DNA of 35,498 nt from a virus (IMGVR_UViG_2531839531_000004:1-35498); one strand, 5' to 3'. Positions 1 to 18,005 are shown, numbered from the stretch's first letter. Numbers and translations are program-made. Notes: generated by a model not told the origin, from the letters alone.

Positions 1-32
1 ATTTTTGAACTGCGCCCCAGATCTTGGACAAC

Positions 33-897
33 TTATGCAGCCTGACTCAATCGATATTGTACCGGGCTAAGACCGCCAAGTTTTTCCTTTATCCTCAATT
101 GATTATAATAGTTTATGTAATCAATGATGTCTCGCTTTAAGTCCTCCACATTTTTATATTCATTGAGGTAATAACATTCTGATTTCAATGTTCCAAAAAA
201 GCTCTCTATAACTGCATTATCAAGACAATTTCCCCGGCGAGACTTACTCTGGACTATACCGCTATCCTTTAACCATCGTTGCCACCGGGACATCTGATAT
301 TGCCAACCTTGATCGCTGTGCAGTATGGGGTGTTCATCTTTCGACAGCTGTTTCAGCGCATCCGTAAGCATAGTCTGCACCATTGAAGGTTGAGGGCGAG
401 TGGCGAGGTTATAGGAAATTATTTCTCCATTATAAAGATCCATGACGGGCGACAAATACAGCTTCTTGCCATTCACTTTAAATTCAGTGACATCTGTAAC
501 CCACTTCTCGTTGGGGCGTTTTGCATCAAAATTGCGTTTCAGGAGATTATCGCAAATTCGTCCTTGTTCTCCTTTATATGAACGGTATTTTTTAACGTCG
601 GATCAGGCTGCTAATACCCAGTTCCTTCATCAGTTTTCTGACGGTTTTACCATTAAATAAAACCCCCTCGTTACGACATGCCAGCCTGATGCGTCTGTAA
701 CCATAGCGGCCTTTGTGCTGGTGATAAATTTTCAGCACAAGCGCTCTGGCAGACTGATACCGGTCAGGAGCAGCAAGCCGTCTGACATGATAGTAAAATG
801 TACTCCGGGGCAGCCCGGAAACAATTAACAATCGGGACAATGGCCATTCCTGCCTTAGTTCATTCACAATGCTCACTTTTTCCTGAACGTTGAGCAT
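33..897 (-). pseudogene. IS3-family transposase OrfB (integrase core), disrupted by a 1-bp indel
   Basis: Two ORF pieces (592-897 and 33-476) that read as one continuous OrfB if a single base is removed near 592-597 (CGT-TAA gives a stop; without the extra T it reads RRKKYRSYKGE...). The C-terminal piece carries an rve-like core. Confidence 0.75.
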
Positions 898-1379
898 GTT
901 TTCTGCTGAACCAAGGCTTTCAGCTTTTTTAAGTAGGCATTCTCGACCCTGAGTTGTTCAAGTTCTTCTCTCTCATCTTTGGTTAGTGTTGGTAGTGGTG
1001 GTGCTGAAATGGCGCTTTTATCCGGCACAGGAATACTCTTTTTATTTTTTCGAATGAAAGCATCTTCGCCATATTTTCTATATTTTTCAAGCCAGTTGCA
1101 TACAGTACCAAAGGCTGGTATTCCGTGTTTTACCGCTACTTCACGAACAGAAAAACAGTCATCCACGACTTCTTTTACTACTGTGAGTTTTAACTCAGCA
1201 GAATAGCGTCCTTTTTTACCCGTAAGTATGCTTATCCCATGTTCCCGATAGGCATAAGCCCATTTTCTTACTGTGCAGGGACTGATACCGTACATCCTTG
1301 CTACAGATTTCAGACTCAACTCTCCCTCCAGGTACTTTTCTGATACTACCTTTTTGAACTCCAATGAAAACTTTTCCAT
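873..1379 (-). CDS. IS3-family transposase OrfA (HTH DNA-binding subunit)
   Basis: 168-aa ORF with ATG at 1379. Has HTH region and a C-terminal leucine-zipper-like segment (LEQLRVENAYLKKLKAL) typical of IS3 OrfA. A-AAA-AAG slippery motif near its 3' end (about 925-931, minus strand). Confidence 0.85.
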   Translation of the reverse strand: MEKFSLEFKKVVSEKYLEGELSLKSVARMYGISPCTVRKWAYAYREHGISILTGKKGRYSAELKLTVVKEVVDDCFSVREVAVKHGIPAFGTVCNWLEKYRKYGEDAFIRKNKKSIPVPDKSAISAPPLPTLTKDEREELEQLRVENAYLKKLKALVQQKTCSTFRKK

Positions 1380-1445
1380 GCATCCTCAGTTTTTGGTCTG
1401 GTGTCTAACTTTGGGGCGCAGTTCATTTTTAATGGACACTATCGT

Positions 1446-2093
1446 ATGAAACACCGGACCTGGATCACTGAAGCTTTACGTCTTCACTTTGAAGAACATT
1501 TACCCCGGGTTGTGGCCGGGCGTCGCCTGGGTGTACCAAAATCAACAGTTTGTAGTATGTTCGTGCGCTTTCGGAGAGCTGGCCTTTCGTGGCCTTTGCC
1601 CGCAGGCATGTCGGAGCAGGAACTTGATGCCTGCCTTTACGGACAATTTTCCACGGTACCAGTCGTACGTCCTGAAAGCACCGTTATATCCGAAGCCCCC
1701 GTGGTAAAAAAACGTCCCCGGCGGCCCAACTTCCCTTATGAGTTTAAAATCGCCTTAGTGGAGCAGTCACTGCAGCCCGGAGCCTGTGTGGCGCAGATCG
1801 CCCGGGAAAACGGAATCAACGATAACCTGCTCTTCAACTGGCGCCATCAATACCGGAAAGGTGGCCTGCTGCCTTCCGGAAAAAATATGCCGGCACTGCT
1901 TCCCGTGACGTTAACGCCGGAGCCGGATAATAAAATCCCGGCCCCCGCACAGGAACCAGAGCAGATAAATACACCGTCCGACAGTCTGTGTTGTGAGCTG
2001 GTTCTGCCGGCCGGAACTCTCAGGCTTAAAGGTAAACTGACGCCGGCGTTATTACAGACACTTATCCGCGAAATAAAAGGGAGCAGCCACTGA
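1446..2093 (+). CDS. tnpA: IS66-family accessory protein (orf1/TnpA-like) with N-terminal extension
   Basis: ATG at 1446; the track start at 1401 lies inside the IS3 repeat. C-terminal half (PNFPYEFKIALVEQSLQPGACVAQIARENGINDNLLFNWR) parallels orf1 of copy 2 (RRIFSNEFKLHMVELASKPNANVAQLAREHGVDNNLIFKWL). Confidence 0.7.
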   Translation: MKHRTWITEALRLHFEEHLPRVVAGRRLGVPKSTVCSMFVRFRRAGLSWPLPAGMSEQELDACLYGQFSTVPVVRPESTVISEAPVVKKRPRRPNFPYEFKIALVEQSLQPGACVAQIARENGINDNLLFNWRHQYRKGGLLPSGKNMPALLPVTLTPEPDNKIPAPAQEPEQINTPSDSLCCELVLPAGTLRLKGKLTPALLQTLIREIKGSSH

Positions 2094-2440
2094 TGATATC
2101 TCTCCCTGCAGGTTCGCGTATCTGGCTGGTTGCAGGTATCACCGATATGCGAAATGGCTTTAACGGCCTGGCATCAAAAGTTCAGAACGTCCTGAAGGAT
2201 GACCCGTTCTCCGGACACCTGTTCATCTTCCGCGGACGCCGGGGTGACCAGATAAAAGTGTTGTGGGCTGACAGTGACGGACTGTGCCTCTTCACCAAAC
2301 GCCTGGAGCGGGGCCGCTTCGTCTGGCCAGTCACCCGTGACGGCAAGGTGCACCTTACTCCGGCTCAGTTATCCATGCTTCTTGAAGGTATCAACTGGAA
2401 GCACCCGAAACGAACGGAACGCGCTGGAATCCGCATATAA
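2093..2440 (+). CDS. tnpB: IS66-family TnpB (orf2)
   Basis: 115 aa; closely parallel to copy 2 orf2 (GxRIWLVAGxTDMRxxFNGL...HLFIFRGRRGD...LWAD.DGLCLFTKRLE). Start overlaps the orf1 stop. Confidence 0.85.
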   Translation: MISLPAGSRIWLVAGITDMRNGFNGLASKVQNVLKDDPFSGHLFIFRGRRGDQIKVLWADSDGLCLFTKRLERGRFVWPVTRDGKVHLTPAQLSMLLEGINWKHPKRTERAGIRI

Positions 2441-2459
2441 CCCGTTGTAAAGTGAGGAT

Positions 2460-4031
2460 ATGGACACCTCACTTGCTCATGAGAACGCCCGCCTGCGGGC
2501 ACTGTTGCAGACGCAACAGGACACCATCCGCCAGATGGCTGAATACAACCGCCTGCTCTCACAGCGGGTGGCGGCTTATGCTTCCGAAATCAACCGGCTG
2601 AAGGCGCTGGTTGCGAAACTGCAACGTATGCAGTTCGGTAAAAGCTCAGAAAAACTTCGTGCAAAAACCGAACGGCAGATACAGGAAGCACAGGAGCGAA
2701 TCAGCGCACTTCAGGAAGAAATGGCGGAAACGCTGGGTGAGCAATATGACCCGGTACTGCCATCCGCCCTGCGCCAGTCTTCAGCCCGTAAACCGTTACC
2801 GGCCTCACTTCCCCGTGAAACCCGGGTTATCCGGCCGGAAGAGGAATGCTGTCCTGCCTGTGGTGGTGAACTCAGTTCTCTGGGATGTGATGTGTCAGAG
2901 CAACTGGAGCTTATCAGCAGCGCCTTTAAGGTTATCGAAACACAACGTCCGAAACAGGCCTGTTGCCGGTGCGACCATATCGTGCAGGCACCAGTACCTT
3001 CAAAACCCATTGCACGCAGTTATGCCGGAGCGGGGCTTCTGGCCCATGTTGTCACCGGGAAATATGCAGACCATCTGCCGTTATACCGCCAGTCAGAAAT
3101 ATACCGTCGTCAGGGAGTGGAGCTGAGCCGTGCCACACTGGGGCGCTGGACAGGTGCTGTTGCTGAACTGCTGGAGCCGCTGTATGACGTCCTGCGCCAG
3201 TATGTGCTGATGCCCGGTAAAGTCCATGCTGATGATATCCCCGTCCCGGTCCAGGAGCCGGGCAGCGGTAAAACCCGGACAGCCCGGCTGTGGGTCTACG
3301 TCCGTGATGACCGTAACGCCGGTTCACAGATGCCCCCGGCGGTCTGGTTCGCGTACAGTCCGGACCGGAAAGGTATCCATCCACAAAATCACCTGGCCGG
3401 TTACAGCGGTGTGCTTCAGGCCGATGCTTACGGTGGTTACCGGGCGTTATACGAATCCGGCAGAATAACGGAAGCCGCGTGTATGGCTCATGCCCGGAGA
3501 AAAATCCACGATGTGCATGCAAGAGCGCCCACCTACATCACCACGGAAGCCCTGCAGCGTATCGGTGAACTGTATGCCATCGAGGCAGAGGTCCGGGGCT
3601 GTTCAGCAGAACAGCGTCTGGCGGCAAGAAAAGCCAGAGCCGCGCCACTGATGCAGTCACTGTATGACTGGATACAGCAACAGATGAAAACACTGTCGCG
3701 TCACTCAGATACGGCAAAAGCGTTCGCATACCTGCTGAAACAGTGGGATGCACTGAACGTGTACTGCAGTAATGGCTGGGTGGAAATCGACAACAACATC
3801 GCAGAGAACGCCTTACGGGGAGTGGCCGTAGGCCGGAAAAACTGGATGTTCGCGGGTTCCGACAGCGGTGGTGAACATGCGGCGGTGTTGTACTCGTTGA
3901 TCGGCACATGCCGTCTGAACAATGTGGAGCCAGAAAAGTGGCTGCGTTACGTCATTGAACATATCCAGGACTGGCCGGCAAACCGGGTACGCGATCTGTT
4001 GCCCTGGAAAGTTGATCTGAGCTCTCAGTAA
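2460..4031 (+). CDS. tnpC: IS66-family transposase TnpC (orf3)
   Basis: 523-aa ORF with N-terminal coiled-coil, CxxC...CxC zinc-finger-like region, and the conserved HLPLYRQSE, [11 protein letters not shown] and ADAYGGY segments shared with copy 2. Confidence 0.85.
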
Positions 4032-4133
4032 ATATCAATACGGTTCTGACGAGTCGCTTACTAGTGAGTTGTATCTATTTATTTTCCAATAAATACAATT
4101 GGTTATGTGTTTTTAGGTGGGGCGATCGTGAGG

Positions 4134-4166
4134 CAAAGAAAACCCGGCGCTGAGGCCGGGCTTTTA
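4134..4166. terminator. Bidirectional intrinsic terminator-like hairpin
   Basis: Stem CCCGGC (4143-4148) / GCCGGG (4155-4160) with a 6-nt loop, A-run upstream and CTTTT downstream. On the minus strand it sits 17 bp past the stop of the 4183-5220 gene and is followed by a U-run. Confidence 0.55.
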
Positions 4167-4182
4167 GGGCGGGTTGATGCTC

Positions 4183-5220
4183 TTAACACCCTTTAATGGG
4201 AGTTGAGATACGAGATATCATTGCTGATTCAATTATCCCACTTCTGACTTTATAGTCACCAAAAAGAGAAATTGAATCAGAAAGTTTCATGCTTTCATAA
4301 AGAAGGTCTGTTTCGTCTTTATCTATAAAATCAGTAACAACATAAGCAGGGAAGGTATAATCAGTGCCAACCTTTTTGCAAGTTACTGTCAGCTTTCCAT
4401 CTGATTTTTTAATGCCTTCAATTTCAACTTCTTCTGTAAGTTCTTTGTTGGAAAGTTTCTCACGTGGGTTTCTTATCATTTCGGCAATATCACGCTTATC
4501 TAATTCGATCTTTGCCATACCATTAAACTCTACTCTGTCAGCATCTGAGACGCCTTTCAACACCCCAACCACAGCATTTGAAGTATGGGATTGAATTCCC
4601 TCTGAAATCTCCCTCGCAGCTGCTGTGGCAGTATGAGCAGAAAGAACTTCAACCATGCCATCTTTAAGCAGTCTCATTTGCTCAGTTTGGCTGTTGGTGT
4701 CGTTGAGGCCTTCATCAATCTCAAGTTGCTTCATTTTTTCTATATGGCGATCTTTTTGTCTCGACTTTATCAGCCAAGCCCCAGTAAGGATCAGCGATAT
4801 GAGAACGAGACATATAGCTTTCTCTGTTCCAGTCATACCTTGTGTTGACCTCTCAAATGCAACACCAAATGAATCAATTACATCCTTTATAGCAACAAGT
4901 AGGTCAGTACAGCCAGGCTCAACTTTAAAAATTATCTCAAGCTCTTTTCTATCACTGTCTTTCAAATGCTTGAGATTATCCGTTCCTCGCCTTACAAGCA
5001 TAAACGCTTTATAAAGTTCGGTCTGAAACTCGCACATACCTTGAGCTAAAGAGGACGGTATCGTCCCATTATACCGGTCTGGATCACCATAAATCTTGAA
5101 ACTTACGTGGTTAACAAAATCAATTTTAATGTCATTGATAGATATTTGCTGACCTTTCTGAACTCTTTCTAAAAACTCTGAAACGTCGCTTAATGATGAG
5201 ATATCAATTTGATTGTCCAT
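4183..5220 (-). CDS. Hypothetical single-pass membrane protein (345 aa) in the rexAB position downstream of cI
   Basis: Long ORF directly downstream of and co-oriented with cI. Start chosen at ATG 5220 (MDNQIDISS...), 22 bp past the cI stop. One hydrophobic segment (KAICLVLISLILTGAWLI) followed by a basic cluster (KSRQKDRHIEK). Region is AT-rich (about 37% GC in a 60-bp count at 4201-4260) against roughly 50% flanks. No similarity to RexA/RexB that I can recognise. Confidence 0.6.
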   Translation of the reverse strand: MDNQIDISSLSDVSEFLERVQKGQQISINDIKIDFVNHVSFKIYGDPDRYNGTIPSSLAQGMCEFQTELYKAFMLVRRGTDNLKHLKDSDRKELEIIFKVEPGCTDLLVAIKDVIDSFGVAFERSTQGMTGTEKAICLVLISLILTGAWLIKSRQKDRHIEKMKQLEIDEGLNDTNSQTEQMRLLKDGMVEVLSAHTATAAAREISEGIQSHTSNAVVGVLKGVSDADRVEFNGMAKIELDKRDIAEMIRNPREKLSNKELTEEVEIEGIKKSDGKLTVTCKKVGTDYTFPAYVVTDFIDKDETDLLYESMKLSDSISLFGDYKVRSGIIESAMISRISTPIKGC

Positions 5221-5242
5221 ATCTTTTCTCAATGTTATTGTG

Positions 5243-5959
<717 letters not shown>

Positions 5960-5966
5960 TTAAATC

Positions 5967-6032
5967 TATCACCGCAAGGGATAAATATCTAACACCGTGC
6001 GTGTTGACTGTTTTACCTCTAGCGGTGATAAT
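5967..6032. promoter_or_regulatory. Lambda right operator oR3-oR2-oR1 with divergent pRM and pR
   Basis: Three 17-bp operator sites: TATCACCGCAAGGGATA (5967-5983), TAACACCGTGCGTGTTG (5990-6006), TACCTCTAGCGGTGATA (6014-6030). pR -35 TTGACT (6004-6009) and -10 GATAAT (6027-6032). cro SD TAAGGAGG at 6045-6052. Confidence 0.9.
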
Positions 6033-6047
6033 AATTGCATGTACTAA

Positions 6048-6257
<210 letters not shown>

Positions 6258-6264
6258 ATAACAC

Positions 6265-6296
6265 CGCTCTTACACATCACAGCCCTGAAAAAGGGC
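6265..6296 (+). promoter_or_regulatory. nutR (boxA plus boxB) N-utilisation site
   Basis: boxA CGCTCTTAC at 6265-6273; boxB stem-loop GCCCTGAAAAAGGGC at 6282-6296, matching lambda nutR as I recall it. Confidence 0.85.
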
Positions 6297-6375
6297 ATCC
6301 AATTAAACCACACCTATGGTGTATGCATTTATTTTCATACATTCAATCAATTGTTATCTAAGGAAATACTTACAT

Positions 6376-6669
6376 ATGGTTCGTGCAAACAAACGCAACG
6401 AGGCACTACGAATCGAGAGTGCGTTGCTTAACAAAATCGCAATGCTTGGAACTGAGAAGACAGCGGAAGCTGTGGGAGTTGATAAGTCGCAGATCAGCAG
6501 GTGGAAGAGGGACTGGATTCCAAAGTTCTCAATGCTGCTTGCTGTTCTTGAATGGGGGGTCGTTGACGACGACATGGCTCGATTGGCGCGACAAGTTGCT
6601 GCGATTCTCACCAATAAAAAACGCCCGGCGGCAACCGAGCGTTCTGAACAAATCCAGATGGAGTTCTGA
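6376..6669 (+). CDS. cII: CII transcriptional activator
   Basis: 97 aa from ATG 6376 (MVRANKRNEALRIESALLNKIAMLGTEKTAEAVGVDKSQISRWKRDW...) matches lambda CII. The track ORF from 6316 is an upstream alternative-start extension. Confidence 0.93.
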   Translation: MVRANKRNEALRIESALLNKIAMLGTEKTAEAVGVDKSQISRWKRDWIPKFSMLLAVLEWGVVDDDMARLARQVAAILTNKKRPAATERSEQIQMEF

Positions 6670-6690
6670 GGTCATTACTGGATCTATCAA
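6612..6690 (-). ncRNA. oop: oop antisense RNA with its t0 terminator
   Basis: Reverse complement of 6597-6698 reads ...GACTCCTGTTGATAGATCCAGTAATGACCTCAGAACTCCATCTGGATTTGTTCAGAACGCTCGGTTGCCGCCGGGCGTTTTTTATTGG, the lambda oop/t0 sequence as I recall it. Exact 5' end not determinable from sequence alone. Confidence 0.55.
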
Positions 6691-6701
6691 CAGGAGTCAT
6701 T

Positions 6702-7601
6702 ATGACAAATACAGCAAAAATACTCAACTTCGGCAGAGGTAACTTTGCCGGACAGGAGCGTAATGTGGCAGATCTCGATGATGGTTACGCCAGACTATCA
6801 AATATGCTGCTTGAGGCTTATTCGGGCGCAGATCTGACCAAGCGACAGTTTAAAGTGCTGCTTGCCATTCTGCGTAAAACCTATGGGTGGAATAAACCAA
6901 TGGACAGAATCACCGATTCTCAACTTAGCGAGATTACAAAGTTACCCGTCAAACGGTGCAATGAAGCCAAGTTAGAACTCGTCAGAATGAATATTATCAA
7001 GCAGCAAGGCGGCATGTTTGGACCAAATAAAAACATCTCAGAATGGTGCATCCCTCAAAACGAGGGAAAATCCCCTAAAACGAGGGATAAAACATCCCTC
7101 AAATTGGGGGATTGCTATCCCTCAAAACAGGGGGACACAAAAGACACTATTACAAAAGAAAAAAGAAAAGATTATTCGTCAGAGAATTCTGGCGAATCCT
7201 CTGACCAGCCAGAAAACGACCTTTCTGTGGTGAAACCGGATGCTGCAATTCAGAGCGGCAGCAAGTGGGGGACAGCAGAAGGCCTGACCGCCGCAGAGTG
7301 GATGTTTGACATGGTGAAGACTATCGCACCATCAGCCAGAAAACCGAATTTTGCTGGGTGGGCTAACGATATCCGCCTGATGCGTGAACGTGACGGACGT
7401 AACCACCGCGACATGTGCGTGCTGTTCCGCTGGGCATGCCAGGACAACTTCTGGTCCGGTAACGTGCTGAGCCCGGCCAAACTCCGCGATAAGTGGACCC
7501 AACTCGAAATCAACCGTAACAAGCAACAGGCAGGCGTGACAGCCAGCAAACCAAAACTCGACCTGACAAACACAGACTGGATTTACGGGGTGGATCTATG
7601 A
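6702..7601 (+). CDS. O: Replication initiator protein O
   Basis: 299-aa product matching lambda O; contains the ori iterons internally. Confidence 0.95.
   Translation: MTNTAKILNFGRGNFAGQERNVADLDDGYARLSNMLLEAYSGADLTKRQFKVLLAILRKTYGWNKPMDRITDSQLSEITKLPVKRCNEAKLELVRMNIIKQQGGMFGPNKNISEWCIPQNEGKSPKTRDKTSLKLGDCYPSKQGDTKDTITKEKRKDYSSENSGESSDQPENDLSVVKPDAAIQSGSKWGTAEGLTAAEWMFDMVKTIAPSARKPNFAGWANDIRLMRERDGRNHRDMCVLFRWACQDNFWSGNVLSPAKLRDKWTQLEINRNKQQAGVTASKPKLDLTNTDWIYGVDL
7050..7195 (+). promoter_or_regulatory. ori-lambda: four iterons plus AT-rich unwinding region, inside O
   Basis: Four direct repeats of the TCCCTCAAAACGAGGGA type (7050-7134), then an A/T-rich stretch ACAAAAGAAAAAAGAAAAGATTATT (about 7136-7195). 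Confidence 0.85.
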
Positions 7602-8299
7602 AAAACATCGCCGCACAGATGGTTAACTTTGACCGTGAGCAGATGCGTCGGATCGCCAACAACATGCCGGAACAGTACGACGAAAAGCCGCAGGTACAGC
7701 AGGTAGCGCAGATCATCAACGGTGTGTTCAGCCAGTTACTGGCAACTTTCCCGGCGAGCCTGGCTAACCGTGACCAGAACGAAGTGAACGAAATCCGTCG
7801 CCAGTGGGTTCTGGCTTTTCGGGAAAACGGGATCACCACGATGGAACAGGTTAACGCAGGAATGCGCGTAGCCCGTCGGCAGAATCGACCATTTCTGCCA
7901 TCACCCGGGCAGTTTGTTGCATGGTGCCGGGAAGAAGCATCCGTTACCGCCGGACTGCCAAACGTCAGCGAGCTGGTTGATATGGTTTACGAGTATTGCC
8001 GGAAGCGAGGCCTGTATCCGGATGCGGAGTCTTATCCGTGGAAATCAAACGCGCACTACTGGCTGGTTACCAACCTGTATCAGAACATGCGGGCCAATGC
8101 GCTTACTGATGCGGAATTACGCCGTAAGGCCGCAGATGAGCTTGTCCATATGACTGCGAGAATTAACCGTGGTGAGGCGATCCCTGAACCAGTAAAACAA
8201 CTTCCTGTCATGGGCGGTAGACCTCTAAATCGTGCACAGGCTCTGGCGAAGATCGCAGAAATCAAAGCTAAGTTCGGACTGAAAGGAGCAAGTGTATGA
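7598..8299 (+). CDS. P: Replication protein P (DnaB helicase loader)
   Basis: 233-aa product matching lambda P; start overlaps the O stop (ATGA at 7598-7601). Confidence 0.95.
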   Translation: MKNIAAQMVNFDREQMRRIANNMPEQYDEKPQVQQVAQIINGVFSQLLATFPASLANRDQNEVNEIRRQWVLAFRENGITTMEQVNAGMRVARRQNRPFLPSPGQFVAWCREEASVTAGLPNVSELVDMVYEYCRKRGLYPDAESYPWKSNAHYWLVTNLYQNMRANALTDAELRRKAADELVHMTARINRGEAIPEPVKQLPVMGGRPLNRAQALAKIAEIKAKFGLKGASV

Positions 8300-8586
8300 C
8301 GGGCAAAGAGGCAATTATTCATTACCTGGGGACGCATAATAGCTTCTGTGCGCCGGACGTTGCCGCGCTAACAGGCGCAACAGTAACCAGCATAAATCAG
8401 GCCGCGGCTAAAATGGCACGGGCAGGTCTTCTGGTTATCGAAGGTAAGGTCTGGCGAACGGTGTATTACCGGTTTGCTACCAAGGAAGAACGGGAAGGAA
8501 AGATGAGCACGAACCTGATTTTTAAGGAGTGTCGCCAGAGTGCCGCGATGAAACGGGTATTGGCAGTATATGGAGTTAAAAGATGA
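8296..8586 (+). CDS. ren: Ren (Rex-exclusion resistance) protein
   Basis: 96-aa product matching lambda Ren (MTGKEAIIHYLGTHNSFCAPDVAALTGATVTSINQAAAKMARAGLLVIEGKVWRTVYYRFATKEE...). Confidence 0.9.
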   Translation: MTGKEAIIHYLGTHNSFCAPDVAALTGATVTSINQAAAKMARAGLLVIEGKVWRTVYYRFATKEEREGKMSTNLIFKECRQSAAMKRVLAVYGVKR

Positions 8587-8611
8587 CCATCTACATCACT
8601 GAGCTAATAAC

Positions 8612-8643
8612 AGGCCTGCTGGTAATCGCAGGCCTTTTTATTT
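8612..8643 (+). terminator. tR2-like intrinsic terminator
   Basis: Stem AGGCCTGC (8612-8619) / GCAGGCCT (8628-8635), 8-nt loop, then TTTTTATTT. Same position as lambda tR2 (between ren and ninB). Confidence 0.8.
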
Positions 8644-8659
8644 GGGGGAGAGGGAAGTC

Positions 8660-8730
8660 ATGAAAAAACTAACCTTTGAAATTCGATCTCCAGCACATCA
8701 GCAAAACGCTATTCACGCGGTACAGCAAAT
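8660..8730 (+). pseudogene. ninB: ninB 5' fragment (first ~23 codons), truncated by IS66 insertion
   Basis: ATG at 8660 gives MKKLTFEIRSPAHQQNAIHAVQQ, the lambda NinB N-terminus as I recall it. The reading frame runs straight into the IS66 left repeat at 8731. Confidence 0.8.
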
Positions 8731-8815
8731 GTAAGCGTAAAGCCAATGCCGTCTGTAACACCTGCTCCTTGCAGACTAAATTAGAGCTCCTTCTAAATTA
8801 GACGGAGTTCTATTG

Positions 8816-9247
8816 ATGGATAAACCTACAGACTGGCGCTCCGGAACCCGCCGGATATTTTCTAATGAATTTAAACTTCATATGGTTGAACTGGCTTCGA
8901 AACCAAATGCCAATGTTGCACAACTGGCCCGGGAACATGGCGTTGATAACAACCTGATTTTTAAATGGCTACGCCTCTGGCAAAGAGAAGGACGTATTTC
9001 TCGTAGAATGCCTCCAACTATTGTAGGCCCTACAGTATCACAATCTTTTCCGGCCTCTCCGACTCTGGTTCCAGTGGAACTTATCGACACCCCGCGCTGT
9101 GCTACAGATGCTCCTGCTCCGGAGGCATTATCAGTTGCTTGCGCAGCTTCCTGCCATGTGGAATTCCATTACGGTAAAATGATGCTGGAAAATCCTTCAC
9201 CAGAGCTGCTCACGGTGTTGATCCGTGAGCTGACCGGGAGGGGATGA
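8816..9247 (+). CDS. tnpA: IS66-family accessory protein (orf1/TnpA)
   Basis: ATG at 8816 (MDKPTDWRSGTRRIFSNEFKLHMVELASKPNANVAQLAREHGVDNNLIFKWLR...); HTH-like region; stop overlaps the orf2 start. Confidence 0.8.
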   Translation: MDKPTDWRSGTRRIFSNEFKLHMVELASKPNANVAQLAREHGVDNNLIFKWLRLWQREGRISRRMPPTIVGPTVSQSFPASPTLVPVELIDTPRCATDAPAPEALSVACAASCHVEFHYGKMMLENPSPELLTVLIRELTGRG

Positions 9248-9597
9248 TGATTTCACTCCCATCAGGTACCCGTATCTGGCTCGTTGCCGGCGTTACTGAT
9301 ATGCGTAAATCCTTCAACGGTCTGGGGGAGCAGATACAGCATGTGCTGGATGATAACCCCTTCTCCGGTCACCTGTTTATCTTCCGTGGCCGACGGGGAG
9401 ACACGATTAAAATCCTGTGGGCTGATGCTGATGGTCTGTGCCTGTTCACCAAACGCCTTGAGGAAGGTCAGTTTATCTGGCCTGCGGTGCGTGACGGTAA
9501 GATATCCATTACCCGCTCGCAACTGGCAATGCTCCTCGATAAGCTGGACTGGCGTCAGCCAAAAACATCCCGCCTTAACGCACTGACAATGTTGTAA
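9244..9597 (+). CDS. tnpB: IS66-family TnpB (orf2)
   Basis: 117 aa, parallel to copy 1 TnpB. Confidence 0.85.
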   Translation: MMISLPSGTRIWLVAGVTDMRKSFNGLGEQIQHVLDDNPFSGHLFIFRGRRGDTIKILWADADGLCLFTKRLEEGQFIWPAVRDGKISITRSQLAMLLDKLDWRQPKTSRLNALTML

Positions 9598-9627
9598 AAA
9601 ACGCCGGGCCGGATTATAAAAACGGCC

Positions 9628-11240
9628 ATGAGTCAGAAATACCTCATTCGCATCGCTGAGCTGGAAAGGCTGCTCTCTGAGCAGGCTGAAGCCCTCCGTC
9701 AGAAAGACCAGCAACTGAGTCTGGTTGAAGAGACGGAGGCCTTCCTGCGCTCTGCACTGGCACGTGCCGAAGAAAAGATCGAAGAAGATGAGCGAGAAAT
9801 AGAGCATCTGCGGGCTCAGATAGAAAAACTGCGCCGGATGCTGTTTGGAACCCGTTCTGAAAAACTGCGTCGTGAGGTTGAACAGGCTGAAGCCCTGCTG
9901 AAACAACGCGAGCAGGAAAGCGATCGTTACAGTGGGCGTGAGGATGACCCGCTGGTTCCCCGCCAGTTGCGACAGTCGCGCCATCGTCGTCCGTTACCGG
10001 CACATCTCCCCCGTGAAATATACCGCCTGGAGCCTGAAGAAAGCTGTTGCCCGGAGTGTGGCGGTGAGCTGGATTATCTGGGGGAAGTCAGCGCAGAACA
10101 ACTGGAACTGGTGAGCAGCGCCCTGAAAGTGATCCGCACAGAACGGGTAAAAAAGCCTGTACAAAATGTGACTGCATCGTTGAAGCACCGGCGCCGTCCC
10201 GCCCGATAGAGCGTGGTATCGCGGGCCCCGGATTACTTGCCCGCGTGTTAACGGGAAAATACTGCGAACACCTGCCACTGTATCGTCAGAGTGAAATCTT
10301 TGCCCGACAGGGTGTCGAACTGAGCCGTGCATTACTCTCCAACTGGGTTGACGCGTGCTGCCAGTTAATGACGCCGCTGAATGATGCCCTGTACCGTTAT
10401 GTGATGAATACCCGCAAGCTTCACACTGACGACACACCGGTAAAGGTACTGGCACCGGGCCTGAAAAAGACGAAAACAGGGCGCATCTGGACGTATGTCC
10501 GGGATGATCGCAATGCGGGTTCGTCATCTCCTCCGGCGGTCTGGTTCGCGTACTCATCGAACCGGCAGGGGAAACACCCGGAGCAACACCTCCGCCCCTT
10601 CCGGGGTATCCTGCAGGCGGATGCGTTCACAGGTTATGACAGGCTGTTCAGTGCAGAACGTGAAGGTAGTGCGCTGACAGAAGTTGCGTGCTGGGCTCAT
10701 GCCCGGAGAAAAATCCACGATGTATACATCAGCAGCAAAAGTGCGACGGCAGAAGAAGCCCTGAAGCGAATCAGTGAACTGTACGCCATCGAGGATGAAA
10801 TACGGGGATTACCAGAGTCAGAACGTCTTGCAGCCAGGCAGCAGCGAAGCAAAGCGTTACTGACGTCGCTGCATGAATGGATGGTGGAGAAGAATGGCAC
10901 GCTGTCGAAAAAATCCAGACTGGGCGAAGCGTTCAGCTATGTACTGAATCAGTGGGACGCCCTCTGTTATTACAGTGATGACGGTCTGGCGGAGGTGGAC
11001 AATAACACAGCGGAAAGAGCGCTTCGTGCAGTCTGTCTCGGAAAGAAAAATTACGTGTTCTTCGGTAGCGATCACGGCGGCGAGCGTGGAGCACTGCTGT
11101 ACGGGCTGATCGGCACCTGCCGTCTGAACGGTATCGATCCGGAAGCGTATCTGCGCCATATTCTGAGCGTACTGCCGGAATGGCCCTCCAACCGTGTTGA
11201 CGAACTCCTGCCATGGAACGTAGTACTCACCAATAAATAA
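9628..11240 (+). pseudogene. tnpC: IS66-family transposase TnpC, split by a 1-bp frameshift at an A-run
   Basis: ORFs 9628-10209 and 10245-11240 together cover a full TnpC. In the -1 frame from the A6 run at 10149-10154 the sequence reads [49 protein letters not shown], aligning with copy 1 (...[46 protein letters not shown]). Confidence 0.8.
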
Positions 11241-11270
11241 GCGTCAATACGGTGCTCCGTTGACGCTTAC

Positions 11271-12988: not shown

Positions 12989-13073
12989 AGTCAGAGATAA
13001 CAATCAACTAATACTGTTTTGTTGATTTTTGCTTGTAATTGGCGTTCTGGTCTGATTTTTGTGGAGTAAGTTG

Positions 13074-13457
13074 ATGCGTGATATTCAGATGGTTCTTGAG
13101 CGTTGGGGAGCGTGGGCGGCTAATAATCATGAAGATGTGACCTGGTCGTCCATTGCCGCCGGTTTTAAGGGATTAATTACTTCAAAAGTAAAATCTCGCC
13201 CGCAATGTTGTGACGATGACGCGATGATCATTTGCGGGTGCATGGCCCGTCTGAAAAAGAACAACAGCGATTTGCACGATTTATTAGTAGATTATTATGT
13301 AGTCGGTATGACATTCATGTCACTGGCAGGTAAGCATTGCTGCTCTGATGGTTATATCGGGAAAAGGTTACAGAAGGCTGAGGGCATAATTGAAGGGATG
13401 TTAATGGCATTAGATATCCGGTTAGAGATGGATATCGTTGTTAATAACTCTAATTAA
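13074..13457 (+). CDS. quuD: Late-gene antiterminator Q (QuuD / phage-21-like type)
   Basis: 127 aa from ATG 13074 ([26 protein letters not shown]...), matching DLP12 QuuD as I recall it. The track ORF start at 13059 is a TTG. Confidence 0.85.
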
Positions 13458-13645: not shown

Positions 13646-14728
13646 TTAGAACTGGTAAACCATACCTACAGCAACGATATCATCGGTAGCAACGCCAGAT
13701 GCTTTCGTGAAATCGCTCTTATCAATCAGGTTGATTTTGTAGTCAACAAAAGTGGACATATCTTTGTTGAAGTAATAGGTTGCACCTACATCAACATATT
13801 CAACCAGGTCCTGATCACCCCAAACACCCAAGTCTTTTCCTTTAGAATGCAGGTAAGCAACGGATGGACGCAGGCCGAAGTCGAACTGATATTGTGCAAC
13901 AGCTTCGAAGTTTTGTGCTTTGTTGGCAATATGGTTATTACCAAAAACAGTCATGTTCTGGGTTTCAGAATAGGTGGTGGCCAGATAGATGTTGTTCGCA
14001 TCATATTTCAGACCAGCTGCCCATACTTCAGCATTTTGACCAGAAGCATTCAGACCGTTGTTACCGTAGATAACCTGATTATTAGTGCGATCAGATTTAG
14101 CATAGGTTGCACCCACGCCGAATCCTTCATACTCATAAGTAGTTGAGAAACCGAAACCATCGCCATTAGCTTCAGTTACTTCATTTCGGTCATTTTTGCC
14201 CTGATACTGAGCTGCAAAGTTCAGGCCATCAACCAGACCAAAGAAGTCGTTGTTACGATAAGTTGCAACACCTGTGGTGCGACCAGTCATGAATACATCT
14301 GTTTGGGTCCAGGTATCGCCACCGAATTCTGGCAGAACGTCAGTCCACGCACCGATGTCGTATGCTACACCGTAGTTACGGCCGTAATCGATTGAGCCGT
14401 AGTCACCGAATTTCAGGCCTGCAAATGCAAGACGGGTTTTGTCTTTGGAGGAACCTTGAGATTCAGCGCGGTTGCCTTTGAATTCATATTCCCACTGACC
14501 GAAACCAGTCAGTTGATCGTTGATTTGGGTTTCACCTTTGAAGCCAAGACGGGCATAAGTAGTATCACCATCATCTGCATCATTAGAGGAGAAGTAGTGC
14601 TTAGCATTAACTTTCCCGTACAGATCCAGCTTGTTACTGTCTTTATTATAAATTTCAGCTGCCTGAGCAGACATCGCCATCAGTACTGATGCAGCTACAG
14701 CAGAAATTGCCACTGTTAATTTTTTCAT
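13646..14728 (-). CDS. nmpC: Outer-membrane general porin, NmpC/Lc (OmpC/PhoE family), intact
   Basis: 360-aa product with signal peptide ([23 protein letters not shown]), beta-barrel porin pattern and C-terminal ...VGMVYQF. Matches E. coli NmpC as I recall it. AT-rich upstream region 14729-15270. Confidence 0.92.
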
Positions 14729-16667: not shown

Positions 16668-17189
16668 ATGAATATCGTGCCACTTAATTACAAAGGTGAA
16701 ATTGTCAGTTTCAACACTGATGGTTGGATCAACGTCACAGGTGTTGCTGAGAGATTTGGGAAACGCATTGATAACTGGATGCGTTTGGCAGAAACGCTTG
16801 AATACGTTCGTGCTTTAGACGAAGCGTTGACCGGGAAAGAATCTCAAATTTTACATCCCTCACAATCGAGGTATGTAAAAACCAGCAAGGCACGAAAGGA
16901 CAGGGGTGGTGGTACGTGGCTACATCCAAAACTTTCAGTTGCATTTGCCCGTTGGTGTGATGCTCGTTTTGCTGTGTGGTGCGACCTGCACATTGATAGT
17001 CTGCTTCGCGGTGAACTGACTGAGCAGCAGAAATATGAGCAAGCATGTCGCATTCGCGATGACCGGAAATCAAAAGCCAGCAATGGGGCAAGAGAGATGG
17101 CTCGCTGGCGATGGGATAAGCCGGTTATTGAAGCAAATGTTGAGTACTGGCGCGAGCAACTGCAGTTGACTCTCGATATCGCGTGCTGA
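16668..17189 (+). CDS. KilA-N domain-like protein (173 aa)
   Basis: N-terminal region (VSFNTDGWINVTGVAERFGKRIDNWMRLAETLEYVRAL) resembles the KilA-N DNA-binding fold; preceded by a good SD-like GGTAGGTAAACG. Confidence 0.55.
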   Translation: MNIVPLNYKGEIVSFNTDGWINVTGVAERFGKRIDNWMRLAETLEYVRALDEALTGKESQILHPSQSRYVKTSKARKDRGGGTWLHPKLSVAFARWCDARFAVWCDLHIDSLLRGELTEQQKYEQACRIRDDRKSKASNGAREMARWRWDKPVIEANVEYWREQLQLTLDIAC

Positions 17190-17538: not shown

Positions 17539-17949
17539 TTAGTGCGGAAATATTTGTGTAGTGTTCTGAATGTTCTCAGTAAAGAGTAATGAATTATCAA
17601 AGGTATAGTAATACCTTTTGTTTTCGTGGATATTTGTAATCCATCTGAAAACCCCTGCTGTAGCAAGATTTTTCCTGTATTCGTAAAATGATAACTCTCC
17701 TGATTTGAATCCTTTTAAGGTGGCTTCTATAAGGCATTTATTTTTTGAAAATCTTACATTTACAACCTTACCCTGTCCTTTTATTAAAACCGTATTATCG
17801 TTTTCAAGAACAAGATGAATATTCTCTGTAGCTAAATAGTAAATGTAATGTGAGACATTGTGACGTTTTAGTTCAGAATAAAACCAGTGATAGTTTAAAT
17901 TATTTCGCACTTTATCGAATATTTGTTTAAAAATGGCAACCTGAGCCAT
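17539..17949 (-). CDS. ybcV: YbcV-like protein (DUF1398 family)
   Basis: 136 aa from ATG 17949 ([18 protein letters not shown]...[25 protein letters not shown]), recalled as similar to DLP12 YbcV. AT-rich. Confidence 0.75.
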
Positions 17950-18005
17950 TGTAGTACCTTCCATGTGATATGAGGGGCGTAGTCTGCACGATTATCTAAA
18001 TTGCT

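What the first reader, a model, noticed from the sequence alone, without database searches (positions are those of the whole stretch)
4183..5220. Unrecognised AT-rich membrane-protein gene in the rexAB defence slot beside cI
In lambda, the slot immediately downstream of cI (same strand, transcribed from pRM) holds rexA/rexB, the classic prophage-encoded exclusion system. Here the flanking cI, oR and cro match lambda, but the slot holds a single 345-aa ORF with no resemblance to RexA or RexB that I can see. It has one central hydrophobic helix followed by a basic cluster, acidic terminal domains, clearly lower GC than its neighbours, and its own hairpin terminator at 4134-4166. Position, co-orientation with the repressor and foreign composition are the signature of a lysogen-expressed moron, most plausibly a single-gene anti-phage or abortive-infection protein. 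I cannot assign it to any family from sequence alone.
Basis: partly seen in the sequence, partly recalled or inferred. Interest (0 to 1): 0.85.

Follow-up and report, generated by a model that had tools for sequence, protein, structure and literature searches.

The report
Uncharacterised prophage membrane protein replacing rexAB
A real 345-residue membrane-protein gene sits exactly where phage lambda keeps its rexAB exclusion genes; it belongs to a large family of mobile prophage add-on genes whose function nobody has tested, so it is a good but unproven candidate for a new phage-exclusion protein.

Summary
The ORF at 4183-5220 (-) is real. It is under purifying selection and gives a confident structure model (pLDDT 90). 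A 1086-bp cassette (4161-5246) replaces lambda rexA-rexB precisely, from the last codon of cI to the base of lambda's Timm terminator. The hairpin at 4134-4166 is therefore lambda backbone, not the gene's own terminator.

The gene is not unseen. It is 100% identical to mEp33204 of phage mEp332 (GenBank 2007, 'conserved hypothetical'). It occurs in 18 of 5426 complete E. coli genomes.

It belongs to PHROG 6191 (unknown function). A profile search found 755 cluster representatives, in Gamma- and Betaproteobacteria wherever a source organism was named. There are no Pfam, NCBIfam, PADLOC or PDB-sequence matches and no relation to RexA or RexB.

The predicted architecture is a conserved acidic N-domain, one hydrophobic helix, a helical stalk and an acidic C-terminal OB fold.

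Relatives sit after cI-like repressors, at prophage edges, and as low-GC inserts inside tail modules. This is the behaviour of a mobile moron.

An anti-phage role is plausible but untested. I favour a block of phage entry at the envelope (0.4) over Rex-like abortive infection (0.25). Membrane topology is unresolved.

The parts
4183..5220 (-). 345-aa ORF of PHROG 6191. Predicted layout: acidic N-domain (residues 1-128) with family-invariant G45, G103-[S/C]104-[T/S]105 and M129; hydrophobic helix (about 131-150); three long helices (150-223); acidic OB-fold domain (229-339).
4161..5246 (-). Replacement cassette: the ORF plus 22 to 26 nt on each side. It substitutes exactly for lambda rexA-rexB (lambda 35825-37226).
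   Evidence: BLAST against lambda and junction sequences. The right joint is at the last codon and stop of cI. The left joint is at the 5' base of the Timm hairpin.
5221..5242 (-). 22-nt cI-to-ORF spacer (cacaataacattgagaaaagat) with a weak purine-rich ribosome-binding region. It holds no terminator or promoter-like site.
4135..4165 (-). Intrinsic terminator (AAAAGCCCGGC-CUCAGC-GCCGGGUUUUCUUU). This is lambda Timm, part of the shared backbone.
4062..4134 (.). Lambda-like backbone between Timm and the position where oL3 should follow. It is cut off at 4061/4062 by the IS end.
5243..5956 (-). cI repressor (237 aa, HTH_3 + Peptidase_S24) with lambda immunity.
5957..6056 (.). oR3-oR2-oR1 with pRM and pR. 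pRM is the presumed promoter of the cI-ORF transcript.

Best explanation
**What it is.** The ORF is a mobile prophage 'moron' that displaced rexAB by cassette exchange. In a lysogen it is most likely read from pRM (and pRE) on the cI transcript, which ends at the resident Timm terminator.

**The protein.** It is a non-enzymatic-looking, single-span inner-membrane protein. It has a conserved acidic N-terminal domain, which I take as probably cytoplasmic. A helical stalk and a more variable acidic OB-fold domain follow the membrane helix, and I take these as probably periplasmic.

**Preferred mechanism.** It protects the lysogen from superinfecting phages at the cell envelope. [quoted passage not shown] This is superinfection exclusion of the HK97 gp15 / P22 SieA type, not suicide of the infected cell.

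**Shown:** cassette replacement; family size and mobility; purifying selection; predicted architecture; absence of known domains.

**Inferred:** transcription in lysogens; membrane insertion and topology; any anti-phage activity; the step that is blocked.
For: **Cassette and co-transcription**
- The swap is exact, with joints at the cI stop and the Timm hairpin.
- The gap to cI is 22 nt with no terminator, and oR/pRM is intact.

**Same slot under many immunities**
- The gene follows repressors in E. coli (two immunities), Yersinia, Morganella, Pantoea, Raoultella, Arsenophonus, phage phi458 and others.
- The cI-N interval is a known mosaic hotspot that holds rexAB and bstA (PMC8585504).

**Other moron sites**
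- Relatives sit between lambda-type K and I tail genes, followed by a lipoprotein (phrog_914).
- That two-gene insert is low-GC and ends in a strong terminator.
- A visibly close relative of the K-I copies (sequences) lies inside a myovirus baseplate module.
- Others lie at prophage edges, one beside a YecR lipoprotein.
- Known entry-blocking genes occupy such tail-module positions (HK97 gp15: PMC3594210).

**Real, conserved protein**
- dN/dS is about 0.04-0.08 for the closest pairs.
- The AF2 model has pLDDT 90.3 and pTM 0.86.

**Membrane protein without catalytic signature**
- The hydrophobic helix is conserved in position across 85 members.
- There is no catalytic domain or motif in Pfam, NCBIfam, PADLOC or PDB.
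- The acidic, aromatic-poor OB domain argues against nucleic-acid binding and for protein or ligand binding.
- The part after the helix is cysteine-depleted (68% of members have none in about 196 aa), while the N-domain has normal and often odd cysteine counts. This fits an N-in/C-out topology.
Against: - No functional data exist for any member. Every source name found is 'hypothetical protein'.
- Topology is unresolved. K/R counts flanking the helix favour C-in (1.46 upstream against 2.84 downstream). The query itself has a basic cluster just after the helix.
- The high pTM could mean that the N-domain and the OB domain pack together on one side of the membrane.
- The slot's best-known occupants (RexAB, BstA) are abortive-infection systems, not entry blockers.
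- The invariant G-[S/C]-[T/S] motif could mark an active site, which would argue for an effector activity.
- Deleted or split alleles are common. This would fit a costly or toxic effector as well as simple decay.
Confidence: 0.4

Rival explanations
1. It is a single-chain abortive-infection protein, a functional analogue of RexA plus RexB. One soluble domain senses a phage product. The hydrophobic helix then oligomerises to depolarise or permeabilise the inner membrane, killing the infected cell before phage release.
For: - It replaces rexAB exactly.
- BstA, another occupant of this slot, is an abortive-infection protein.
- The pattern of a conserved domain plus a variable domain resembles effector-plus-sensor logic.
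- A conserved Gly and Gly-Gly-aromatic stretch at the end of the helix suggests helix-helix packing.
- Frequent deletion or frameshift alleles remove the helix, as expected for a costly effector.
- A tail-tip-triggered prophage abortive-infection system is known (HepS, PMC13043305). That logic could explain the tail-module copies.
Against: - There is only one hydrophobic helix and no similarity to RexB or to any known pore or effector domain.
- Co-location with lipoprotein genes in tail modules fits envelope-level exclusion better.
- There is no partner or antitoxin-like gene in the E. coli cassette.
Confidence: 0.25
2. It is a lysogenic-conversion or regulatory function unrelated to phage exclusion. 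Examples would be an envelope or fitness factor for the host (like Lom or Bor), or a modulator of the lysogeny-lysis transition, as RexA/RexB also are.
For: - Morons have diverse roles (PMC3594210).
- RexA has a role in the genetic switch independent of exclusion (PMC11077077).
- The protein has no recognisable defence domain.
- A UTI89 relative appeared among promoter fragments induced in bladder cells, together with many neighbouring prophage genes.
Against: - A switch modulator would not be expected inside tail modules or at prophage edges.
- There are no DNA-binding features; both soluble domains are acidic.
Confidence: 0.2
3. It is a type II secretion GspM-like assembly-platform component, as labelled in GenBank PV340541.1.
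For: - The record calls it 'T2SS GspM containing protein'.
- The N-domain secondary-structure order (alpha-beta-beta, alpha-beta-beta) recalls the GspM/PilO-type fold. This is my own reading and was not tested.
Against: - There is no Pfam hit of any kind at E <= 1 and none in 85 members.
- NCBIfam gives none.
- The domain order differs: here the domain precedes the membrane helix.
- No secretion genes are nearby in any locus examined.
Confidence: 0.03

Closest known systems
Lambda RexA/RexB exclusion system
   Same: It occupies the identical genomic slot, with identical flanks: the cI stop on one side and the Timm terminator on the other. It has the same strand and presumed pRM/pRE transcription, is similarly AT-rich, and includes a membrane component.
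   Different: It is one gene instead of two. It has one hydrophobic helix instead of RexB's multi-span protein. There is no sequence or profile similarity to RexA or RexB. It has no DNA-binding RexA-like part, since both soluble domains are acidic.
HK97 gp15 and P22 SieA (prophage-expressed inner-membrane proteins that block DNA injection)
   Same: All are prophage accessory genes encoding inner-membrane, non-enzymatic proteins. Family members sit as low-GC inserts in tail operons, as gene 15 does in HK97 (PMC3594210; PMC10883804).
   Different: There is no sequence relationship; the only PHROG hit is 6191. This protein is much larger than gp15, which that review calls a small protein, and it has two folded soluble domains including an OB fold. 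Its activity is untested.
BstA (BTP1 and other prophages)
   Same: It is a single gene immediately downstream of the prophage repressor, presumed to share the repressor's promoter, and it is found with diverse immunity regions (PMC8585504).
   Different: No Pfam domain of any kind was found, including KilA-N, which from memory is BstA's N-terminal domain. This protein is membrane-anchored rather than soluble and replication-focus-associated. No aba-like self-immunity element was looked for.
PHROG 6191 / mEp33204 of phage mEp332
   Same: It is 100% identical to mEp33204. It matches the PHROG profile end to end at E = 6e-116.
   Different: There is no difference. This is the same gene. In the window it is followed by an IS66-family insertion instead of oL-pL-N.

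Membership tests
PHROG 6191 (unknown function) | Full-length match to the family profile | tested here: met
   E = 6.3e-116 over residues 1-344 against profile positions 4-337 of 338. Distant members P0126 and P0166 also match.
RexA / RexB | Sequence or profile similarity to lambda RexA or RexB | tested here: not met
   hhalign probability is 0.9% for RexA and 0.2% for RexB.
RexA / RexB | Two-gene system: a soluble DNA-binding sensor plus a multi-span membrane protein | tested here: not met
   It is a single ORF with one hydrophobic segment. A second-best segment reaches KD >= 1.6 in only 1 of 85 members.
Known anti-phage defence proteins (PADLOC-DB v2.0.0) | Match to any of 5027 defence-protein models | tested here: not met
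   0 families at E <= 1.
T2SS GspM (GenBank label in PV340541.1) | Match to the Pfam or NCBIfam GspM model | tested here: not met
   No Pfam hit at E <= 1 for the query, none among 85 members, and none in NCBIfam.
BstA | N-terminal KilA-N-type domain (recalled from memory as BstA's domain) | tested here: not met
   No Pfam domain was detected.
Moron (Juhala/Hendrix sense) | Extra gene inserted between backbone genes that are adjacent or differently filled in related phages | tested here: met
   The cassette is bounded by lambda-identical flanks. Relatives are inserted between K and I tail genes and inside a myovirus baseplate module.
Moron (Juhala/Hendrix sense) | Base composition distinct from the surrounding phage genome | tested here: met
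   The ORF is 38.5% GC against 52.2% for the prophage part. In L018 the insert is 53-57% GC against 65-70% in the flanking tail genes.
Moron (Juhala/Hendrix sense) | Own promoter and terminator | tested here: not met
   In this locus there is no promoter-like site in the 22-nt gap, and the terminator is lambda's Timm. The tail-module insert in L018 does end in a strong terminator at 6448-6465.
Moron (Juhala/Hendrix sense) | Expressed from the repressed prophage | not testable with these tools
   This is inferred from the position 22 nt downstream of cI on the pRM transcript.
OB-fold domain (C-terminal 229-339) | Five-stranded barrel with a helix between strands 3 and 4, and structural match to OB proteins | tested here: met
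Superinfection-exclusion inner-membrane proteins (gp15 / SieA type) | Inner-membrane location | tested here: inconclusive
   A conserved hydrophobic helix is predicted. Topology indicators conflict. No localisation data exist.
Superinfection-exclusion inner-membrane proteins (gp15 / SieA type) | Blocks DNA entry of superinfecting phage without blocking adsorption | not testable with these tools
   This needs phage challenge and injection assays.

The most novel reading that the evidence does not exclude
The family is a new class of single-polypeptide transmembrane phage sensor-effector. The variable OB domain would detect an incoming phage component, or an envelope perturbation, on one side of the inner membrane. 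The signal would pass through the single helix to the conserved domain carrying the invariant G-[S/C]-[T/S] motif, which would execute defence. The result would be a one-gene functional replacement for RexAB with an architecture unlike any described defence protein.
Probability: 0.2. Interest if true: 0.8.

Novelty: new variant of a known kind. Interest (0 to 1): 0.55.

Why it matters
- The interval between cI and N in lambdoid prophages is one of the oldest known homes of phage-exclusion genes, and how RexAB works is still debated.
- This slot holds an exact natural replacement of rexAB by a single gene from a large, entirely uncharacterised family.
- The family has a confident structure model, no known domains and a clear record of hopping between prophage accessory-gene sites.
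- If it excludes phages, it adds a new protein type to prophage-encoded immunity. It also offers a simple one-gene system, in a lambda background, for studying envelope-level sensing or blocking of infection.
- If it does not, it warns against reading 'defence' from position alone.

Tried and rejected
**Family and structure searches that gave nothing**
- Pfam, NCBIfam and PADLOC on the query and on up to 85 family members gave only scattered sub-threshold noise.
- A PDB sequence-profile search gave nothing better than E = 0.13.
- Fold searches matched only the OB domain in PDB. In BFVD they matched only uncharacterised phage proteins.
- The AFDB libraries were unavailable, and the N-domain could not be searched on its own.

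**Readings considered and dropped**
- The longer 374-aa reading from ATG 5307 was rejected. It overlaps cI, lies outside the cassette, and homologues do not share it.
- 'Own terminator' was rejected in favour of lambda Timm.
- The OB domain as an ssDNA sensor was considered and down-weighted, because the domain is acidic and poor in aromatic residues.

**Searches with low yield**
- Family-wide locus retrieval with broad alignments failed, because no stretch was conserved enough. The narrower alignment gave only 4 genome loci.
- Plasmids hold essentially no members.

**Literature**
- Searches found no functional study.
- Degnan et al. 2007 is not in the held library.
- A 'PhiR12' search returned only irrelevant papers.

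Full report
**1. The observation**

The minus strand carries an ORF at 4183..5220 encoding 345 aa (MDNQIDISS...). Its ATG is 22 nt after the stop of a 237-aa cI repressor at 5243..5956. The mechanical ORF list extends it to an ATG at 5307 (374 aa). That extension overlaps cI. It lies on the lambda-homologous side of the cassette joint, and homologues, which all begin at the MDNQ position, do not share it.

- Window 5247-6416 (cI, oR, cro, start of cII) is 96.4% identical to lambda. oR3 and oR2 are identical. oR1 has one G-to-A change, which phage mEp332 also carries.
- The protein has one strongly hydrophobic segment, AICLVLISLILTGAWLI (Kyte-Doolittle mean 2.09), followed by KSRQKDRHIEKMK.
- Both flanking domains are acidic, net -6 each.
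- The ORF is 38.5% GC, against 45.4% for cI and 52.2% for the prophage part of the window. Lambda's own rexA (40.2%) and rexB (42.5%) are nearly as AT-rich.
- A hairpin terminator lies at 4135-4165.

**2. Two corrections**

First, the terminator is not the gene's own. Window 4062-4160 is 93.9% identical to lambda 35730-35824, the sequence immediately downstream of rexB. The homology break falls at the 5' base of the hairpin stem. The same hairpin is annotated as Timm in the mEp332 record.

On the other side, the break falls at the last codon and stop of cI (TTTGGTTAA here, TTTGGCTGA in lambda). A 1086-bp cassette (4161-5246), the ORF plus about 22 nt on each side, therefore replaces lambda 35825-37226 (rexB-rexA) exactly.

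Second, the gene has been seen before. It is 100% identical to mEp33204 ('conserved hypothetical protein') in the immunity-region record of wild lambda-immunity phage mEp332 (EF120456.1). It is also identical to a gene labelled 'T2SS GspM containing protein' in the 2025 complete genome PV340541.1. Window 4062-8730 is 99.7-99.8% identical to mEp332.

The gene is in 18 of 5426 complete E. coli genomes, always at >= 99.7% identity, always chromosomal, and always annotated 'hypothetical protein'. Eleven of these have lambda-type cI-cro. Seven have a repressor with a different N-terminal part.

**3. It is a real gene from a large family**

- Close homologues give dN of 0.07-0.20 with saturated dS. 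dN/dS is about 0.04-0.08 for the closest pairs.
- A profile search of 1.84 billion cluster representatives found 755 at E <= 1e-3 and 326 at E <= 1e-10. Most of the 150 listed are about 300-380 aa; some are shorter fragments.
- Named sources include Escherichia, Yersinia, Pantoea, Raoultella, Morganella, Xenorhabdus, Arsenophonus, Aeromonas, Oceanimonas, Vibrio, Photobacterium, Pseudoalteromonas, Pseudomonas, Methylococcales, Chromobacterium and Achromobacter. All are annotated 'hypothetical protein'.
- The query and distant members match PHROG 6191, whose function is unknown.
- There is no Pfam, NCBIfam or PADLOC family and no PDB sequence match.
- Profile comparison with RexA and RexB is negative.

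**4. Predicted structure**

With an 85-sequence alignment, AlphaFold2 gives pLDDT 90.3 and pTM 0.86. An 8-sequence alignment gave only 65 and 0.58.

The predicted layout is:
- An N-domain at residues 1-125, with secondary-structure order beta, alpha-beta-beta, alpha(-alpha)-beta-beta, alpha.
- A hydrophobic helix at 131-148.
- Three helices at 150-165, 170-195 and 200-223.
- A C-terminal beta-beta-beta-alpha-beta-beta barrel.

Across 85 members:
- The best-conserved part is the N-domain core, with G45, G103 and M129 at 98-99%. Position 104 is always S (60) or C (25). Position 105 is T or S, K/R71 is 98%, Y78 is 84% and L86 is 95%.
- The stalk is the least conserved part.
- The OB domain is acidic in 78% of members and poor in aromatic residues (6%). 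This argues against nucleic-acid binding.

**5. Membrane topology is unresolved**

The hydrophobic helix is conserved in position (mean KD 1.8). The indicators conflict:
- K/R counts are higher after the helix (2.84 against 1.46). By the positive-inside rule this points to C-in.
- Net charge differs only slightly, and the other way.
- The roughly 196 residues after the helix have no cysteine in 68% of members, whereas the N-domain has normal and often odd cysteine counts.
- A 130-residue N-domain with no signal peptide is expected to stay cytoplasmic. This last point is established knowledge of membrane insertion, not a test made here.

I lean towards N-in/C-out, at roughly 60:40.

**6. Genomic context of relatives**

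Immediately downstream of a cI-like repressor and upstream of N:
- E. coli (two immunities), Yersinia, Pantoea and Raoultella.
- Morganella, with a DUF3024 gene in between.
- An Arsenophonus phage with an HTH-only repressor.
- Phage phi458, three further loci from assemblies or metagenomes (L020, L033, L023) and two IMG/VR contigs (L025/L026).

At prophage edges:
- Xenorhabdus, next to the integrase.
- Achromobacter.
- Two Pseudomonas viral contigs. One of them (L028) has a YecR-like lipoprotein gene upstream and a large-terminase gene downstream.

Inside tail modules:
- Two clusters lie between lambda-type K and I genes, each followed by a phrog_914 lipoprotein.
- In L018 this two-gene insert is 53-57% GC among tail genes of 65-70%. 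It ends in a strong terminator just before gene I.
- A visibly close relative of those copies (sequences) lies inside an E217/PhiTE-type myovirus baseplate module.
- One Yersinia copy lies between DinI genes and J.

This is the behaviour of a mobile moron. The cI-N interval is an acknowledged mosaic hotspot that holds rexAB and bstA (PMC8585504, citing Degnan et al. 2007).

Decayed alleles are common. A 245-aa E. coli allele lacks roughly residues 67-176, that is the N-domain core and the helix. Aeromonas has split genes.

**7. Mechanism**

Shown:
- The cassette swap.
- Mobility between phages and slots.
- Purifying selection.
- The predicted architecture.
- The lack of any known domain.

Inferred:
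- Transcription with cI from pRM. The gap is 22 nt, no terminator-like or promoter-like site lies between, and the operators are intact.
- Membrane insertion.
- Any function.

I favour envelope-level superinfection exclusion, meaning interference with DNA delivery across the inner membrane. My reasons are:
- The protein looks non-enzymatic.
- Its soluble domains are acidic, protein-binding types.
- The family recurs in tail operons beside lipoprotein genes. HK97 gp15 is a precedent for an inner-membrane entry blocker encoded in a tail operon (PMC3594210), and P22 SieA for an inner-membrane entry blocker (PMC10883804).

A Rex-like abortive-infection role is the main rival. It is supported by the slot, by the pattern of a conserved domain plus a variable one, and by the frequency of inactivated alleles. 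The invariant G-[S/C]-[T/S] motif could mark an activity I cannot identify. A role unrelated to defence remains possible.

The GspM label is not reproducible with Pfam or NCBIfam.

**8. Verdict**

The moron interpretation is well supported. The anti-phage claim is plausible but untested.

Relative to known systems this is a new protein type in a known kind of locus. It is interesting as a well-defined, easily testable candidate. It is not a surprise in itself, because the hotspot is known and the gene was deposited in 2007.

Noticed in passing
window 1-4061: An IS3-family element (minus-strand transposase ORFs at 33-1379) abuts an IS66-family ISCro1 (tnpA, tnpB and tnpC at 1401-4031). The ISCro1 right end (…CGCTTAC) is at 4061. 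It lies 73 bp beyond the Timm U-tract, where lambda and mEp332 continue to oL3-pL-N. The prophage's left arm is therefore absent from the window. The same IS3-ISCro1 block occurs at 99.8% identity on many E. coli plasmids. No complete E. coli genome in the collection showed this junction among the rows listed.
   Followed up: partly
window 8731-11270: A second IS66-family element (GTAAGCG…CGCTTAC) is inserted between ren and the nin region. Its transposase is split into 193-aa and 331-aa ORFs. About 400 bp of mEp332 sequence is missing at the site. With two IS insertions the prophage is probably defective.
   Followed up: partly
window 13646-14728 (-): A 360-aa Gram-negative porin gene (Porin_1, E = 2e-151) lies on the opposite strand just downstream of the Q antiterminator gene (13059-13457) and upstream of the lysozyme gene. 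From memory it resembles the Lc/NmpC-type lambdoid prophage porins. A DUF1398 gene (17539-17964, -) and a KilA-N gene (16668-17189, +) lie nearby.
   Followed up: partly
window 6021 (oR1): oR1 reads TACCTCTAGCGGTGATA, against TACCTCTGGCGGTGATA in lambda. The same change is in mEp332, so it is natural variation within lambda immunity.
   Followed up: yes
L031/L032 5001-5738 (protein P0010): A widespread E. coli allele of 245 aa is listed in 82 blocks of the collection. It is an in-frame deletion derivative lacking roughly residues 67-176 (conserved N-domain core plus the hydrophobic helix). It still sits directly after a lambda-like cI. Aeromonas veronii also carries split copies of 160 and 114 aa.
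   Followed up: partly
L003 6074-6283 (-), L006 6050-6247 (-), L013 6621-6815 (-): A conserved acidic ORF of about 65 aa (phrog_33151, unknown function) lies convergently just downstream of the family gene in Yersinia, Morganella and Raoultella prophages. It is absent from the E. coli cassette.
   Followed up: partly
L016 5022-5351, L029 6116-6505, L030 4390-4794: In tail-module contexts the family gene is followed by a small phrog_914 protein. The L016 copy has a lipobox signal peptide (MRFAIVAALALLAGC…). Together the two genes form a low-GC insert between tail genes K and I.
   Followed up: partly
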